Assembly (NCBI GenBank): GCA_913054135.1
Contig: CAJXJK010000005.1
Location: forward strand, 206,925 to 270,924
Source: an uncultured Flavobacteriales bacterium
GTDB taxonomy: Bacteria; Bacteroidota; Bacteroidia; Flavobacteriales_D; Crocinitomicaceae
Reading direction: 5' to 3'
DNA length: 64,000 bases
Shown: positions 33,445 to 39,428 of the stretch, piece after piece
Layout of the letters: every line of letters begins with the position of its first letter
Position numbering within the stretch: the first letter of the stretch is position 1
Program-made: the position numbers and the translations under genes
Notes under the pieces: model-generated
Seen by the model: only the letters and a program-made list of their open reading frames with translations
The model's database searches: none
Told to the model about the DNA's origin: nothing

Positions 33445-33477
33445 AAAAAACCCTTCAGATTTTCTGAAGGGTTTTTT
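33445..33477 (-). terminator. Bidirectional terminator immediately after tRNA-Leu
   Basis: AAAAAACCCTTCAGA-ttt-TCTGAAGGGTTTTTT. Confidence 0.85.
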
Positions 33478-33478
33478 G

Positions 33479-33562
33479 TACTCGAGGCGGGACTTGAACC
33501 CGCACGACCCAGAGGTCACAAGATTTTAAGTCTTGCGTGTCTACCAATTCCACCACTCGAGC
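33479..33562 (-). tRNA. tRNA-Leu (UAA)
   Basis: GCTCGAG acceptor stem; D-loop TGGTA; anticodon arm CAAGA-CTTAAAA-TCTTG; long variable arm; T-loop TTCAAGT; discriminator A; CCA not encoded. Confidence 0.95.
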
Positions 33563-33659
33563 ATCTCACTTAGCCCGTGAAGACTAAGTGAAAAATCATT
33601 GCTACCGAAGCCCGGTAGCAGTGGTTTGGCATTTTTAGCAGAGATGTTCTCTTGCTTAG

Positions 33660-33732
33660 AGCGGGAGACGGGGCTCAAACCCGCGACCTCCACCTTGGCA
33701 AGGTGGCGCTCTATCAGCTGAGCTACTCTCGC
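33660..33732 (-). tRNA. tRNA-Gly (GCC) with non-canonical elbow
   Basis: GCGAGAG TA GCTC AGCTGATA GAGC G CCACC TTGCCAA GGTGG AGGTC GCGGG TTTGAGC CCCGT CTCCCGC T; U73 discriminator. Confidence 0.92.
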
Positions 33733-33805: not shown

Positions 33806-33835
33806 CAAATATAATACTTCTAAATGAATTGCAAA
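33806..33835 (-). promoter_or_regulatory. Promoter of the tRNA-Gly/tRNA-Leu operon
   Basis: Minus-strand TATATTTG (33813-33806) with TTTG (33835-33832) 18 nt upstream. Confidence 0.6.
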
Positions 33836-33902: not shown

Positions 33903-34784
33903 TCAGTCCTTTTGATATTTCTGATATAAATTGTAAATCATTCCGTCAGAAAGACCAATTTTAGGAACATACACCTCTTTGGTTCCTATTTCATTGAAAA
34001 TGAATTCATAAATCTCACAGGCAGGTACAATTACATCTGCTCTATCTGGCTTTAAATTATATTCAGAAATTCTATCTTCCAAATCAAGTTTTCTCAACTT
34101 TTTGGCCAAGTCTTTCATTTCATCAATCTCAATTGGCTCAGTAGATTTCATTCCAAGTATTTTGTGAATTTTATTGATGTTCCCACCGGTTGCAAACGTC
34201 TTGAATTTGTGTCCCTTTTTCAAATAAGTATTTATCCACTCAGCTAAATCTTCCCAACTTTGGCGTTTTACTTTTCCTTTTATTATTCTAATGGTCCCAA
34301 GTTTGAATGATTTCGAAGCAACTTTTTCACCTTTTTTGAAAATGGATATTTCAGTTGATCCCCCACCCACGTCAATTACCAAAAAAGGATCTTTTTGATC
34401 AAACTCCATTAAAAAGAAGGTAGATAAAATCAGTTTGGCTTCTTCTGAACCTTCAATGATTTCAATGTTTACACCACTTTCTTTTTTAATCTTCTTTTGA
34501 ATTTCTTTTCCGTTTGACGCTTCACGCATTGCTGAGGTAGCACAAGCTCTCAATTCTGTCACTTCAAACACTTCAGATATCAAACGAAATGCTTGCATTG
34601 ATTTGATGAACTCAACACTTTTATGCTCAGAAATTTTACCATTCTCAAAAACTTCCAAACCTAATCTTAACGGAATTCTGGTATAAGAAATCTTCTTGAT
34701 GAAGTGGCGTTTTCCTTCTAATTGAATTTCTCCAATTAGTAATCTTGCTGCATTGGTTCCTATGTCAATCGCTCCAAATCTCAC
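33903..34784 (-). CDS. ppx: Exopolyphosphatase, Ppx/GppA family (short form)
   Basis: AIDIGTNAARLL, ACATSAMREASNG, IDVGGGSTE, PDRADVIVPA, GLSDG; downstream of ppk1. Confidence 0.9.
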   Translation of the reverse strand: MRFGAIDIGTNAARLLIGEIQLEGKRHFIKKISYTRIPLRLGLEVFENGKISEHKSVEFIKSMQAFRLISEVFEVTELRACATSAMREASNGKEIQKKIKKESGVNIEIIEGSEEAKLILSTFFLMEFDQKDPFLVIDVGGGSTEISIFKKGEKVASKSFKLGTIRIIKGKVKRQSWEDLAEWINTYLKKGHKFKTFATGGNINKIHKILGMKSTEPIEIDEMKDLAKKLRKLDLEDRISEYNLKPDRADVIVPACEIYEFIFNEIGTKEVYVPKIGLSDGMIYNLYQKYQKD

Positions 34785-36832
34785 TGATGTATTTTTTGTA
34801 AGAAATAATTGTAGGTTTCGGTTTGTGCATTGTATGGCACAATCTCTCCACCTTCATATCTATGATTGGCTTGCTCTTTATCAATAATTCTTGACTTTGT
34901 GTTGTCATTCAAACAAGCTTCAATCATGAATTTTAAATCTTTTTGAATCTTTGAATCATATATTGGAGTCGCAACTTCTATTCTTCTGTCAATGTTTCTC
35001 CCCATCCAGTCAGCTGATGAAATGAAATAGCGTTCTTTTCCTGCATTGGCAAAAATCATTATTCTAGAATGTTCTAAAAAACGCCCAACGACACTTCTTA
35101 CTACAATGTTTTCAGATAATCCTTTGACCCCAGGAACAAGAGCACAAATCCCTCTTACAACCGCGTAAACTTTAACACCCGCCTTAGAAGCTTCATATAA
35201 TTTTTTGATCATTTTAGAATCTACCAAGTTGTTTATCTTCAGATAGATATAAGCCTCATCACCATTGTGAGCATTTTTGATCTCTTTATCAATTAAGCTA
35301 GAGAGTTTTCTTCTCGTATTAAAGGGAGAGACAATCAGTTCTCTGAATACCGAGCGGTCAAAATTGTTTTTGAATATTTTGAAAACCTTATCTACTTCTT
35401 TGGTAATTCCCGGATCAGCCGTTAAAAGCGAACAATCAGTATACACATTTGCAGTTCCTTCATGAAAGTTCCCCGTTCCTATGTGAGCGATTGTCTGAAT
35501 GTTATTCCCAGATTTTCTTTTGATCACAAACAGTTTTGAATGCACCTTAAGGTTTTGTACACCAAAAAGAACGGTTACTCCATTTTCTTCAAGATGGTTT
35601 GACCATTTAATGTTATTCTTCTCATCAAATCGAGCCAATAACTCAATTACTACCAATACTTTTTTACCGTTTTTGGCAGCCGATATTAATGCATTTATAA
35701 TTTGAGAATTCTTTGCTACTCTGTAAAGGTTAATCTTAATAGAGGTCACCTTAGGGTCAATTGCAGATTCTCTTAAAATATCAATAATAGGTCTAAACGA
35801 TTGGTATGGATAAGTCAAAAGTATATCCTTGTCAAGAACCGTTTTAATGATTGATTTATTTGAGTCTTGAAGTAATGGATGATTTAAAGGAGTCATCTCA
35901 TTATAGACAAAAGTTGAGTTTCCAAAGTCAGGGAACCCCATAAAATCTTTGAAGTTGTGATAACGACCTCCAGGAATAATATTTTCACCAGCTTTTAATC
36001 CTTGAACATTCATTAAATAGTTCAACATATCTAGAGGCATGGCACTGTCATAGACAAAACGAACCGTGTCACCTTCTTTACGCATATCAACACTATCCTT
36101 CATTTTCTCAAGGAAACTTTTCGAGATATCGTCATCTAAATCAAGTTCAGCATCCCTTGTAATCTTGAAAGTGAAAGCTTCGATTTTATCAAAAGAGAAA
36201 ATGCTAAATATTTCAGAGAGGTGAAAACGAATGATGTCATCTAAAAGAATTATCTTTTTTACATCAGTTTTCTTATCACCTGGGATTATAAAGAATCGTG
36301 AAATATCACTTGGAATCTGAATTAGTGCAAATTTGGTTTTCGTTTTCTCATAGTCAGTCATCTTAATTGCCAAGTAAATTCCTTTATCCCGCAATCGAGG
36401 GAAAGGTCTCTTTGATGACAACATTATCGGAACTATTTGAGGTCGAACCGTGTCATGGAAAAAAGCAGAAATTGAATCTGACTCTTCTTCTTTTAAATGA
36501 CTTTCGTCTGTTTGAAGAATGTGTTTTTCTCTTAGACGTTGAAGTATTTTCTCATAAGAAAGTTGAAAAAGTGTTTGTTGCTCCAAAACCAATTTCTTGA
36601 TTTCTTTCAAGAGCTTGGCAGGAGATCCTTTAAAGCCCTCAACTTTCTTAGATCCTAATGCATCCATCCTTCTAATGGTGGCTACGCGAACTTTAAAAAA
36701 TTCATCAAGGTTGTTAGAGTAGATTCCTAAAAAACGGATTCTTTCTATCAATGGATTAGCGGGATCTAGAGATTCTTGAAGAACTCTTTCATTAAATGAT
36801 AACCAGCTTAATTCTCTATTGAATAACTCCAT
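34781..36832 (-). CDS. ppk1: Polyphosphate kinase 1
   Basis: FNRELSWLSFNERVL, LTYPYQSF, LYRVAKNS, ARFDE.NNI, VHSKL, GTGNF, GRFLEHSR, SADWM.RN.DRRIE. Confidence 0.96.
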   Translation of the reverse strand: MELFNRELSWLSFNERVLQESLDPANPLIERIRFLGIYSNNLDEFFKVRVATIRRMDALGSKKVEGFKGSPAKLLKEIKKLVLEQQTLFQLSYEKILQRLREKHILQTDESHLKEEESDSISAFFHDTVRPQIVPIMLSSKRPFPRLRDKGIYLAIKMTDYEKTKTKFALIQIPSDISRFFIIPGDKKTDVKKIILLDDIIRFHLSEIFSIFSFDKIEAFTFKITRDAELDLDDDISKSFLEKMKDSVDMRKEGDTVRFVYDSAMPLDMLNYLMNVQGLKAGENIIPGGRYHNFKDFMGFPDFGNSTFVYNEMTPLNHPLLQDSNKSIIKTVLDKDILLTYPYQSFRPIIDILRESAIDPKVTSIKINLYRVAKNSQIINALISAAKNGKKVLVVIELLARFDEKNNIKWSNHLEENGVTVLFGVQNLKVHSKLFVIKRKSGNNIQTIAHIGTGNFHEGTANVYTDCSLLTADPGITKEVDKVFKIFKNNFDRSVFRELIVSPFNTRRKLSSLIDKEIKNAHNGDEAYIYLKINNLVDSKMIKKLYEASKAGVKVYAVVRGICALVPGVKGLSENIVVRSVVGRFLEHSRIMIFANAGKERYFISSADWMGRNIDRRIEVATPIYDSKIQKDLKFMIEACLNDNTKSRIIDKEQANHRYEGGEIVPYNAQTETYNYFLQKIHQ

Positions 36833-36981: not shown

Positions 36982-37977
36982 TTATTGAATTAATAAATTA
37001 CATCCTCTGATGTCTGAGGTGTCAAATCGACCTAAAATCTCAAAGGTGTCTCCATTTTGCCTACCAAGATCTTGCGTCTCTATAAATGAACAACTGAAAA
37101 CATTTGCCAAGTCAATTACATTTACGCCGCCAGATTTTCCTTCAGAAAAAGAAAAAGGGTCGGTTTGTTCACGGATTAAAACTTTCATCCAAGCAGGTGT
37201 TTTGAAAATTCCATGACCACTTGAGTATGCTTGCGAAAGCAACTCTGTCATTCCGTACTCTGAGTGAATCGTGCTCGTGTTGAGTGCTGAACAAAGTTTT
37301 TCATGCATCTCAGCTTTCGTGATTTCTTTTCTTCGTCCTTTCATTCCGCCGGTCTCCATCACTATGCAATGTGAAAGGTCAACTTTATATTTTTCAGCCA
37401 AGTCTAATAGCGCATAAGATACTCCAAAGAGGATGATTTTTTTCTCATGTTTTCGTGCTTCGATAATTTGACATAGTTTATCAAAGTCATTCATAAATAA
37501 GCCACTGTCCTGATCTTTAGAATGCGTGATTAAATAATCAACCATATAGATTAGTGAAGAGTGCTGATTCTCCATATATGACGGAAGTAAACCAAGAATA
37601 ATAAAATCTTCTATATGCCCATAAAAATGTTCGAACGCCTTAATGAAACTGAGTTCATAAATGGTAAGGTCAAGAATGAAGTGCTTACTTTTCTCAGTTC
37701 CAGTTGTTCCTGAACTATGAAATTCAACTTTCGGTTCACCTTTGCCTGTAATTACTTTCTGATTCTTAAAAAACGAGATGGGTAAAAATGGAATGTCCTG
37801 AAGCTTTTTGACTTCAATATCCCTCTTTGAAAGTTGGCAATATGATCTGTATACAGAATTGTTTTCATATTGAAAATGGAACAATTGTATTGCATATTTC
37901 TCAAACTCTGAGGGAGATGAAATATTGAAAATGTTTTTGATATCAAAAGGTAAATCAGTCAGCAATTGTAGGTTCAA
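36982..37977 (-). CDS. LuxE/acyl-protein synthetase-like acyltransferase
   Basis: IPFLPISFFK, FHSSGTTG, METGGMKGRRKE, SEYGMTELLSQAY, TQDLG, GRFD.SDIRGCN. Confidence 0.85.
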   Translation of the reverse strand: MNLQLLTDLPFDIKNIFNISSPSEFEKYAIQLFHFQYENNSVYRSYCQLSKRDIEVKKLQDIPFLPISFFKNQKVITGKGEPKVEFHSSGTTGTEKSKHFILDLTIYELSFIKAFEHFYGHIEDFIILGLLPSYMENQHSSLIYMVDYLITHSKDQDSGLFMNDFDKLCQIIEARKHEKKIILFGVSYALLDLAEKYKVDLSHCIVMETGGMKGRRKEITKAEMHEKLCSALNTSTIHSEYGMTELLSQAYSSGHGIFKTPAWMKVLIREQTDPFSFSEGKSGGVNVIDLANVFSCSFIETQDLGRQNGDTFEILGRFDTSDIRGCNLLIQ

Positions 37978-38026: not shown

Positions 38027-38542
38027 ATGAAGTTAAAAACAAAAATAAGTCTATTTCTACTCTTAGGGCTAATTTTATTTGGATTACAAGGATGTTTTAA
38101 AAGTGAGAATTATCCACTTGAACCAATCATCTCTAATCCTCAAGTAACTTTGTTGGGCGATTCAGCAAGAGTCTCTTTTGATTTCACAGATGGTGATGCC
38201 GACTTAGGATTGCCTGAGGGTGACACCATTGGTATTTTTGCTCCTGATTCTTTTTACTATAACAATATCTATCTTAGTTATTATGAAAAAGATGATGTGT
38301 TAGGCTGGGTGCCTGGGGAAGATTTAGAGGGAGACCCCGTAAAGTTTAAATACAGAATAAAACCTATTGAAGTTTCAGATAACACAGAAGGTATTAAAGG
38401 CAGAATTGATGTAATGGTTGAGCCAACATATAAAAACAATTTGTCTCCAAATTCAGACACTATTAAGTTTGAAATATTACTGATTGATAAAGCTCTTAAC
38501 CACAGTAATCTTCTGGAAACAGAAGAGGTTATCAGTCTATAA
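38027..38542 (+). CDS. Hypothetical lipoprotein
   Basis: Lipobox LQGC; FDFTDGDADLG motif common in Bacteroidota lipoproteins. Confidence 0.75.
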   Translation: MKLKTKISLFLLLGLILFGLQGCFKSENYPLEPIISNPQVTLLGDSARVSFDFTDGDADLGLPEGDTIGIFAPDSFYYNNIYLSYYEKDDVLGWVPGEDLEGDPVKFKYRIKPIEVSDNTEGIKGRIDVMVEPTYKNNLSPNSDTIKFEILLIDKALNHSNLLETEEVISL

Positions 38543-38552
38543 AGAAACTCGC

Positions 38553-39428
38553 ATGCTCATCTATATTTTATCAAGATCTTCTGAGCTATACTCTACAAAA
38601 AGAATTTATAAGTCAGGAACAAAATCGCGGCATAACGTCAGAGTGATCAATTATCTTGAGTGCGATATAATAGTTGAAAACGGAGATTATAAAATCATCT
38701 ATGAGCACGAAGAACTCCTTAAACCTGATTTCGTTATACCAAGAATTGGCGCTTCGGTAACATCTTATGGCTGCGCAGTGGTTCGACATTTTGAAGTGAT
38801 GGGCGTGCCAGTATTAAATTCATCAGCCGGTATTTATGAGTCAAGAGATAAATTTAGATGTTTACAACAATTGAGTTATGAGGGCATACAGGTTCCTATA
38901 ACTTACCATTCTTATGACTTGTATTATGCCGAACGCATAGTAAGAACAAAGCTCGGGTATCCGTTTATTTTCAAGGTATTAGAGGGTACTCATGGTGAAG
39001 GAGTTCATTTGGTAAATAATGAAGAAGAATTGCACAATAAGTTTTATGAGTCTCAAGCAAAGCATGAAAAAATATTGCTACAAGAATTTATTTCAGAATT
39101 TAAAGGGAAAGATCTTCGCATCATTGTAATTGGAAATGAAGTAGTGGCCTCAATGATGAGAATAGCTCAAGAAGGAGATTTTAGATCAAACATACATAAA
39201 GGAGGGAGAGGAGAAAACGTTCCTATTTCGGCCAAAGAAAAAGAAGTTGCTTTAAAGGCAGCCAAAGTATTGGGTCTTGGAATGGCAGGAGTTGATATAT
39301 TGCGATCTAGCAGAGGTCCTTTGATAATTGAGGTGAATTCATCACCTGGAATTGAAGGCGTAGAGGGAGTGACAAAGATTAAGATTGCAGAGAAGTTAAT
39401 TGAACACATTGAAAATTCAGAAAAATGA
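38553..39428 (+). CDS. RimK-family ATP-grasp alpha-L-glutamate ligase
   Basis: ILSR..ELYSTKR, VIPRIGASVTSYG, RDKFR, GTHGEGV, DLRIIV, FRSNIHKGG, AGVDILRS, IEVNSSPGIEG. Start reassigned to MLIYILS. Confidence 0.92.
   Translation: MLIYILSRSSELYSTKRIYKSGTKSRHNVRVINYLECDIIVENGDYKIIYEHEELLKPDFVIPRIGASVTSYGCAVVRHFEVMGVPVLNSSAGIYESRDKFRCLQQLSYEGIQVPITYHSYDLYYAERIVRTKLGYPFIFKVLEGTHGEGVHLVNNEEELHNKFYESQAKHEKILLQEFISEFKGKDLRIIVIGNEVVASMMRIAQEGDFRSNIHKGGRGENVPISAKEKEVALKAAKVLGLGMAGVDILRSSRGPLIIEVNSSPGIEGVEGVTKIKIAEKLIEHIENSEK

What the first reader, a model, noticed from the sequence alone, without database searches (positions are those of the whole stretch)
33660..33732. tRNA-Gly(GCC) with the near-invariant G19:C56 elbow pair swapped to A19:U56
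The D-loop is AGCUGAUA (G18-A19 instead of G18-G19) and the T-loop is UUUGAGC (U56 instead of C56). The two changes are compensatory, so this looks like selection rather than decay or sequencing error. There is also an A4-C69 acceptor-stem mismatch. The elbow is read by RNase P, the ribosomal L1 stalk and modifying enzymes. Non-canonical elbows in staphylococcal tRNA-Gly mark non-ribosomal use, which raises the possibility of a specialised Gly donor (for example for glycine lipids or other aminoacyl transfer), or a lineage-specific variant.
Basis: partly seen in the sequence, partly recalled or inferred. Interest (0 to 1): 0.6.

Follow-up and report, generated by a model that had tools for sequence, protein, structure and literature searches.

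The report
Ordinary glycine tRNA, swapped elbow pair
This is the cell's normal glycine tRNA for GGC/GGU codons. A near-universal G-C contact at its corner has become A-U, as in this bacterium's other glycine tRNAs and many relatives, so it is a recurring natural variant and not a special-purpose tRNA.

Summary
Observation confirmed; specialised-donor idea not supported. The gene (33660-33732, minus) is the only tRNA-Gly(GCC) found in a Crocinitomicaceae genome. It sits at the conserved ppk-ppx / Gly / Leu(UAA) locus and keeps the strong EF-Tu T-stem. Both Gly(UCC) genes, including the tuf-cluster copy, and both CGN-reading Arg tRNAs also carry A19:U56. No Fem or MprF-type transferase was found. 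A4.C69 is common in relatives with canonical elbows. Independent assemblies give the same gene. A19:U56 is not family-wide: it marks 3 of 7 genomes of this genus and 7 of 10 of a second genus. It recurs in Bacteroidales Gly(UCC) (12 of 31 genomes), Bdellovibrio and Clostridia. No half-swapped gene was seen. In 151 Bacteroidia genomes all 44 swapped tRNAs were Gly or Arg-CGN, and metagenome hits lean towards four-codon boxes. That hints at tuning of strong-codon tRNAs, but tolerated compensatory drift is at least as likely. The scan has noted this swap before on other DNA (81 findings). Low interest.

The parts
33660..33732 (-). tRNA-Gly(GCC), 73 nt, CCA not encoded; G1-C72, C2-G71, G3-C70, U73, C35, C36, U32-A38; T-stem G49-U65, C50-G64, G51-C63
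   Evidence: T-stem compared with PMC7826273
33714..33714 (-). A19 (canonical G19), D-loop partner of the elbow pair
   Evidence: alignment
33677..33677 (-). U56 (canonical C56), T-loop partner of the elbow pair
   Evidence: alignment
33664..33729 (-). A4 (33729) opposite C69 (33664): acceptor-stem mismatch shared with canonical-elbow relatives
33806..33835 (-). Probable Bacteroidota-type promoter: TTTG, 18 nt, TATATTTG (the -7 element begins 81 nt upstream of the tRNA)
   Evidence: sequence; a TAnnTTTG motif lies upstream of the gene in 20 of 21 related loci; consensus from my own knowledge; function inferred
33593..33627 (.). hairpin in the Gly-Leu spacer (processing signal, repeat or weak terminator)
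33478..33562 (-). tRNA-Leu(UAA) with canonical G19:C56, probably co-transcribed; follows Gly(GCC) in most relatives
33447..33479 (.). inverted repeat with A-run and T-run just after tRNA-Leu, probable bidirectional terminator
   Evidence: self-inverted match in blastn; sequence; function inferred
33903..36832 (-). upstream ppk (34781-36832) and ppx (33903-34784); ppx lies upstream of Gly(GCC) in both swapped and canonical relatives

Best explanation
It is the housekeeping elongator tRNA-Gly(GCC). Shown: an intact cloverleaf, the only GCC gene found, an orthologous core locus and standard Gly identity bases. Inferred: it is transcribed with tRNA-Leu(UAA), processed, charged by the alpha2-type GlyRS, bound by EF-Tu through a strong T-stem, and decodes GGC/GGU (45% of Gly codons in long ORFs). 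Position 19:56 is a Watson-Crick tertiary pair whose flat face is read mainly by stacking, so A19:U56 keeps the elbow shape with one hydrogen bond fewer. This family's machinery already handles W19:W56 in its CGN-reading Arg tRNAs, so Gly genes can switch at little cost. Half-swapped states are purged, so only matched pairs persist. On why Gly switches, I put tolerated compensatory change slightly ahead of adaptive tuning (about 0.5 against 0.3).
For: All 3 Gly and both Arg tRNAs found in the genome carry A19:U56, including the UCC copy in the Thr-Tyr-Gly-Thr-tuf cluster. The single-contig relative G002 has one GCC gene, at the same locus. The T-stem matches the S. aureus proteogenic set (PMC7826273). 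One alpha2 GlyRS; TruB present. Both elbow states coexist within single genomes (G005, G006, G086, G140, Bacteroides oleiciplenus). Family Arg-CGN genes show A:U and U:A. G19A+C56U barely changed processing of a pre-tRNA-Gly by plant PRORP3 (kreact 1.78 vs 1.67 per min, KM 7.7 vs 4.8 nM; PMC4797305). The elbow is read as a flat stacked face (PMC4810234). Codon counts.
Against: The assembly lacks some tRNAs (no Ala, Ile-GAU or Arg-UCU), so a missing extra Gly gene cannot be strictly excluded. There are no expression or charging data. Pure drift does not easily explain the confinement to Gly and Arg-CGN in Bacteroidia (44 of 44), or repeated change at exactly this pair in otherwise nearly invariant UCC genes. 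The PRORP result comes from a eukaryotic enzyme.
Confidence: 0.94

Rival explanations
1. Adaptive tuning (compatible with the housekeeping role). The weaker A:U elbow is selected in tRNAs that read strong four-codon-box codons (Gly GGN, Arg CGN; elsewhere Ala, Thr, Pro, Val). It loosens elbow contacts with the ribosome (H38, uL5, L1 stalk) and evens out binding or release, like the known 32-38 tuning.
For: 44 of 44 swapped tRNAs in 151 Bacteroidia genomes are Gly or Arg-CGN. Housekeeping Arg(UCU/CCU) keep G:C in the same genomes. Family Arg-CGN use A:U or U:A, never G:C. 4 state changes each for GCC and UCC on a 30-genome rpoB tree; one clade rejected (p-AU 1e-9 and 7e-4). G000 UCC differs from the canonical sister gene only at 19 and 56. 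Metagenome hits with non-C35 anticodons: 61 of 80 clusters in four-codon boxes vs 16 of 49 and 12 of 27 in canonical backgrounds (odds ratio 3-7, p 1e-6 to 0.03). Tuning of strong-codon tRNAs is established at 32-38 (PMC5041475).
Against: Most Bacteroidia Gly tRNAs keep G:C with the same codons, and no swapped Ala or Pro tRNA was found in the class sample. Which isoacceptor switches differs by lineage (GCC first here, UCC only in Bacteroidales). The tree changes could partly reflect movement of one allele, since the GCC gene is the same in both genera. No kinetics.
Confidence: 0.3
2. The swap is an anti-determinant against an elbow-reading protein (a tRNA-cleaving or -modifying toxin, a phage factor, or a modification enzyme), or a co-adaptation with GlyRS.
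For: Patchy, repeated gains and possible lateral movement of alleles fit episodic selection. GlyRS has E at G000 position 136 in all 12 swapped genomes.
Against: The same residue is in 5 of 17 canonical genomes, and no GlyRS column separates the two groups. The GlyRS tree shows no joint transfer. TruB is present in both kinds, and the review consensus GUUYRANYC admits U56 (PMC7912444). No such reader was identified.
Confidence: 0.12
3. A dedicated non-ribosomal Gly donor, as with staphylococcal NP1-NP3.
For: Only the general resemblance of an altered D/T-loop contact in a tRNA-Gly.
Against: No canonical Gly tRNA is left to translate. The T-stem is the high-affinity type, not A49-U65/U50-A64/A51-U63. 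No FemAB or LPG_synthase_C match. Core syntenic locus.
Confidence: 0.02
4. A decaying pseudogene, an integration-site remnant or an assembly error.
For: The three departures from a textbook gene are all transitions, and the assembly is in 24 contigs.
Against: Identical gene in other species and assemblies, no second partial copy in the genome, no integrase among the flanking genes examined, conserved promoter motif.
Confidence: 0.01

Closest known systems
   Same: Same locus, same acceptor stem including A4.C69, same anticodon loop, T-stem and discriminator
   Different: A19:U56 instead of G19:C56; also C28-G42 instead of G28-C42, and G59 instead of A59
tRNA-Gly(UCC) of Bacteroides, Prevotella, Alistipes and Marinilabiliaceae, and Bacteroidota tRNA-Arg(ACG/UCG/CCG)
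   Same: A19:U56 in core housekeeping tRNAs, the Gly gene often in the Thr-Tyr-Gly-Thr cluster
   Different: In the Bacteroidales sample only UCC is swapped and GCC/CCC are canonical; in this family GCC is swapped in every listed genome that has swapped UCC
tRNA-Gly(GCC) of Bdellovibrio bacteriovorus and Clostridium sp. CAG:567
   Same: A19:U56 in the only GCC gene found
   Different: Other phyla, different anticodon stems, canonical Arg and UCC tRNAs: probably independent origins (inference)
Staphylococcal non-proteogenic tRNA-Gly NP1-NP3 (PMC7826273)
   Same: Gly identity; departure from the canonical D/T-loop sequence
   Different: Those are extra UCC isoacceptors with a weak EF-Tu T-stem, used by Fem transferases and confined to staphylococci; none of this holds here

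Membership tests
elongator tRNA-Gly(GCC) | full cloverleaf and tRNA model score | tested here: met
   (59.4 bits, model positions 1-71)
elongator tRNA-Gly(GCC) | Gly identity bases G1-C72, C2-G71, C35, C36, U73 | tested here: met
   sequence; identity set from my own knowledge
elongator tRNA-Gly(GCC) | high-affinity EF-Tu T-stem G49-U65, C50-G64, G51-C63 | tested here: met
   sequence vs PMC7826273
elongator tRNA-Gly(GCC) | Watson-Crick 19:56 tertiary pair | tested here: met
   A19:U56 by covariation; base identity differs from the usual G:C; the 3D structure was not determined
elongator tRNA-Gly(GCC) | expressed, charged and used on ribosomes | not testable with these tools
staphylococcal-type non-proteogenic tRNA-Gly | extra isoacceptor beside a canonical proteogenic set | tested here: not met
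   only GCC gene found; all 3 Gly genes share the elbow
staphylococcal-type non-proteogenic tRNA-Gly | weak T-stem A49-U65, U50-A64, A51-U63 | tested here: not met
staphylococcal-type non-proteogenic tRNA-Gly | Fem-family or other aa-tRNA-dependent transferase in the genome | tested here: not met
   PF02388 and PF09924 not found; other transferase families were not searched
staphylococcal-type non-proteogenic tRNA-Gly | poor EF-Tu-GTP and ribosome binding in vitro | not testable with these tools
   needs a binding assay

The most novel reading that the evidence does not exclude
The 19:56 elbow pair is a so far undescribed tuning position. Bacteria repeatedly replace G:C by A:U (or U:A) in tRNAs for strong four-codon-box codons. 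Sister species of this family that differ only at this pair in tRNA-Gly(UCC) are a natural experiment for how the elbow sets ribosomal binding or release.
Probability: 0.3. Interest if true: 0.5.

Novelty: new variant of a known kind. Interest (0 to 1): 0.2.

Why it matters
As a single gene it matters little: it is a normal tRNA. It does show that the 'invariant' G19:C56 is a covarying Watson-Crick pair in housekeeping bacterial tRNAs, so such genes should not be read as pseudogenes or as non-ribosomal. If the restriction to Gly and Arg-CGN is adaptive, it would add the elbow to the known tuning elements (32-38 pair, T-stem). The sister genomes G000 and G005 give a clean two-base test.

Tried and rejected
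2. An MFE fold did not give the cloverleaf (z -1.76). This is uninformative for unmodified tRNA; the covariance model was used instead.
3. Low-threshold ARAGORN gave only noise and was not used.
4. Gene conversion from GCC to UCC was rejected: the UCC genes keep their own bases at 16, 52, 60 and 62 next to the swapped ones.
5. Co-evolution or co-transfer of GlyRS was not supported.
6. Loss of TruB was rejected. Loss of Psi55 on U56 tRNAs was considered, but the review consensus admits Y56; left open.
7. 'The norm in Bacteroidales', my early reading, was corrected to 12 of 31 genomes with a UCC match.
8. AT-bias alone: swapped genomes have somewhat lower rpoB GC than close canonical relatives, but other canonical genera are as low; inconclusive.
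9. Literature: no paper with the term A19-U56 and none found on Bacteroidota elbows. Marck and Grosjean 2002 was not held, so prior mention is not excluded.
10. The first Arg pattern missed G37 tRNAs and was corrected.

Full report
Observation. The window holds two tRNA genes, Gly(GCC) at 33660-33732 and Leu(UAA) at 33478-33562, both on the minus strand. The Gly gene matches the whole Rfam tRNA model at 59.4 bits, with 4:69 the only non-standard pair. The same 73 bases occur in another species of the genus and in two independent metagenome assemblies, one differing at 35 of 2482 surrounding positions. It is therefore not an error. Raw reads could not be examined.

Organism and locus. The neighbouring Ppx protein has Crocinitomicaceae as its nearest named relatives. 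The gene lies downstream of ppk-ppx. ppx lies upstream of it in swapped and canonical relatives alike, and Ppx similarity follows the genus. A TAnnTTTG promoter-like motif precedes it in 20 of 21 loci. It is a core gene at its ancestral place.

The genome's tRNA set settles the main question. This is the only GCC gene found. Both Gly(UCC) genes, one in the Thr-Tyr-Gly-Thr-tuf cluster, also have A19:U56, as do Arg(ACG) and Arg(UCG). GGU and GGC make up 45% of Gly codons in long ORFs. The assembly misses some tRNAs, but the single-contig relative G002 also has one GCC gene, at this locus. The T-stem is G49-U65, C50-G64, G51-C63, the proteogenic set in S. aureus, whose non-proteogenic tRNAs have A49-U65, U50-A64, A51-U63 (PMC7826273). 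FemAB and LPG_synthase_C families were not found. A4.C69 occurs in many relatives with canonical elbows, beside G-C and A-U at that pair, so it is unrelated to the swap.

Distribution. In the family, swapped GCC occurs in G000, G005 and G006 (3 of 7 genomes of the genus with a match) and in 7 of 10 genomes of genus g9. Swapped UCC occurs in G000 and four g9 genomes. Of 150 listed family matches, 15 were A:U and 135 G:C; 153 further matches were not listed. In a Bacteroidales sample of about one genome per family, 19 of 131 matches were A:U, all UCC, in 12 of the 31 genomes with a UCC match. No mixed pair appeared in any list, and G19.U56 was found in 0 of 151 class genomes. Arg tRNAs for CGN codons are A:U or U:A in all family genomes examined, while housekeeping Arg(UCU/CCU) stay G:C. 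Across the order, Arg(ACG) is either A:U or G:C. Three Watson-Crick states at 19:56 show that pairing is what is conserved.

History. On an rpoB tree of 30 genomes the GCC and UCC states each change at least 4 times, and a single clade of swapped family genomes is rejected (p-AU 1e-9 and 7e-4). G006 was left out because it had no rpoB match, and the root is not inferred. The UCC genes of G000 differ from those of its sister G005 only at 19 and 56, and keep UCC-specific neighbouring bases, so conversion from the GCC gene is unlikely. The swapped GCC gene is the same in both genera, so movement of one allele, or an old origin with reversions, cannot be told from convergence within the family. 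Different stems in Bdellovibrio, Clostridia and Bacteroidales argue for separate origins at larger scale (inference). GlyRS is alpha2-type and shows no residue or transfer tied to the swap. TruB is present in both kinds of genome.

How it works. Shown: intact gene, Gly identity bases, strong T-stem, strict covariation. From the literature: 19:56 is a Watson-Crick pair that presents a flat face to the ribosome and RNase P (PMC4810234), and G19A+C56U barely affected processing of a pre-tRNA-Gly by plant PRORP3 (PMC4797305). Inferred: the tRNA is charged, delivered by EF-Tu and decodes GGC/GGU with a slightly weaker elbow (0.94). Why Gly switches is open. Tolerated compensatory change in a lineage already handling such Arg tRNAs is my first choice (about 0.5). 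Tuning of strong-codon tRNAs comes second (0.3). All 44 swapped tRNAs found with an any-anticodon pattern in 151 Bacteroidia genomes were Gly or Arg-CGN; that pattern covers only tRNAs with the common D-arm and a 5-nt variable loop. Metagenome hits with non-C35 anticodons were mostly Ala, Thr, Pro and Val: 61 of 80 clusters, against 16 of 49 and 12 of 27 in canonical backgrounds. Tuning of strong four-codon tRNAs at 32-38 is established (PMC5041475). Escape from an elbow-reading protein gets 0.12.

Novelty and verdict. I found no paper naming A19-U56 in bacterial tRNAs, but key older surveys were not held. The variant is present in public genomes such as Bacteroides oleiciplenus. This scan has noted the swap in 81 findings from at least 79 genomes, with similar verdicts for Clostridia Gly(GCC) and Bacteroidota Arg(ACG); those notes are not independent evidence. 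Verdict: a real, conserved, ordinary housekeeping tRNA carrying a recurrent elbow variant. Interest 0.2. The tuning reading has probability 0.3 and would deserve 0.5 if true.

Noticed in passing
G038:C21:53879-53925 and C30:68663-68709; G014:C2:436408-436454; G018:C1:185339-185385 and C12:52772-52818: tRNA-Arg(UCG/ACG) with U19:A56, a third Watson-Crick state of the elbow pair, within the same family.
   Followed up: partly
L502 (G161:C64, first 200 bases) and L506 (G267:C1:944748-944799): The tRNA-Gly(UCC) near rpoB in G161 is identical to that of G267 from another family and unlike G161's other UCC copy. This is lateral transfer of a tRNA gene or a mis-join near the contig end.
   Followed up: partly
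G002:C1:2053614-2058953 (L250, L251): An array of 23 low-scoring tRNA matches, including Ile(UAU), probably from a mobile element.
   Followed up: no
L209 (G463:C6:260478-261319, Bacteroides oleiciplenus): A tRNA array holding a Ser(GCU) with A19:U56, the only non-Gly/Arg case in that genome.
   Followed up: no
own genome G000: No tRNA-Ala, Ile(GAU) or Arg(UCU) was found although AGA is 64% of Arg codons; probably assembly gaps.
   Followed up: partly
G650:C2:440027-441473: Four tandem tRNA-Gly(UCC) copies at about 465-bp spacing, all A19:U56.
   Followed up: no
L423:3179-3229: A tRNA with anticodon CUA (amber-reading) and A19:U56 on a metagenome contig.
   Followed up: no
L139: One locus with two Thr/Gly/Tyr clusters, one with canonical and one with swapped Gly(UCC); possibly a chimeric contig or an acquired cluster.
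   Followed up: no
L485 (GlyRS of G000), residues 133 and 136: E136 is present in all 12 swapped genomes and N133 in 11, but they are also in 5 and 6 of 17 canonical ones.
   Followed up: partly
window 38027-39428: A RimK-like ATP-grasp gene (38484-39428) after an unassigned 171-aa ORF; a LuxE-family gene lies at 36982-37977. No link to the tRNA was seen.
   Followed up: no
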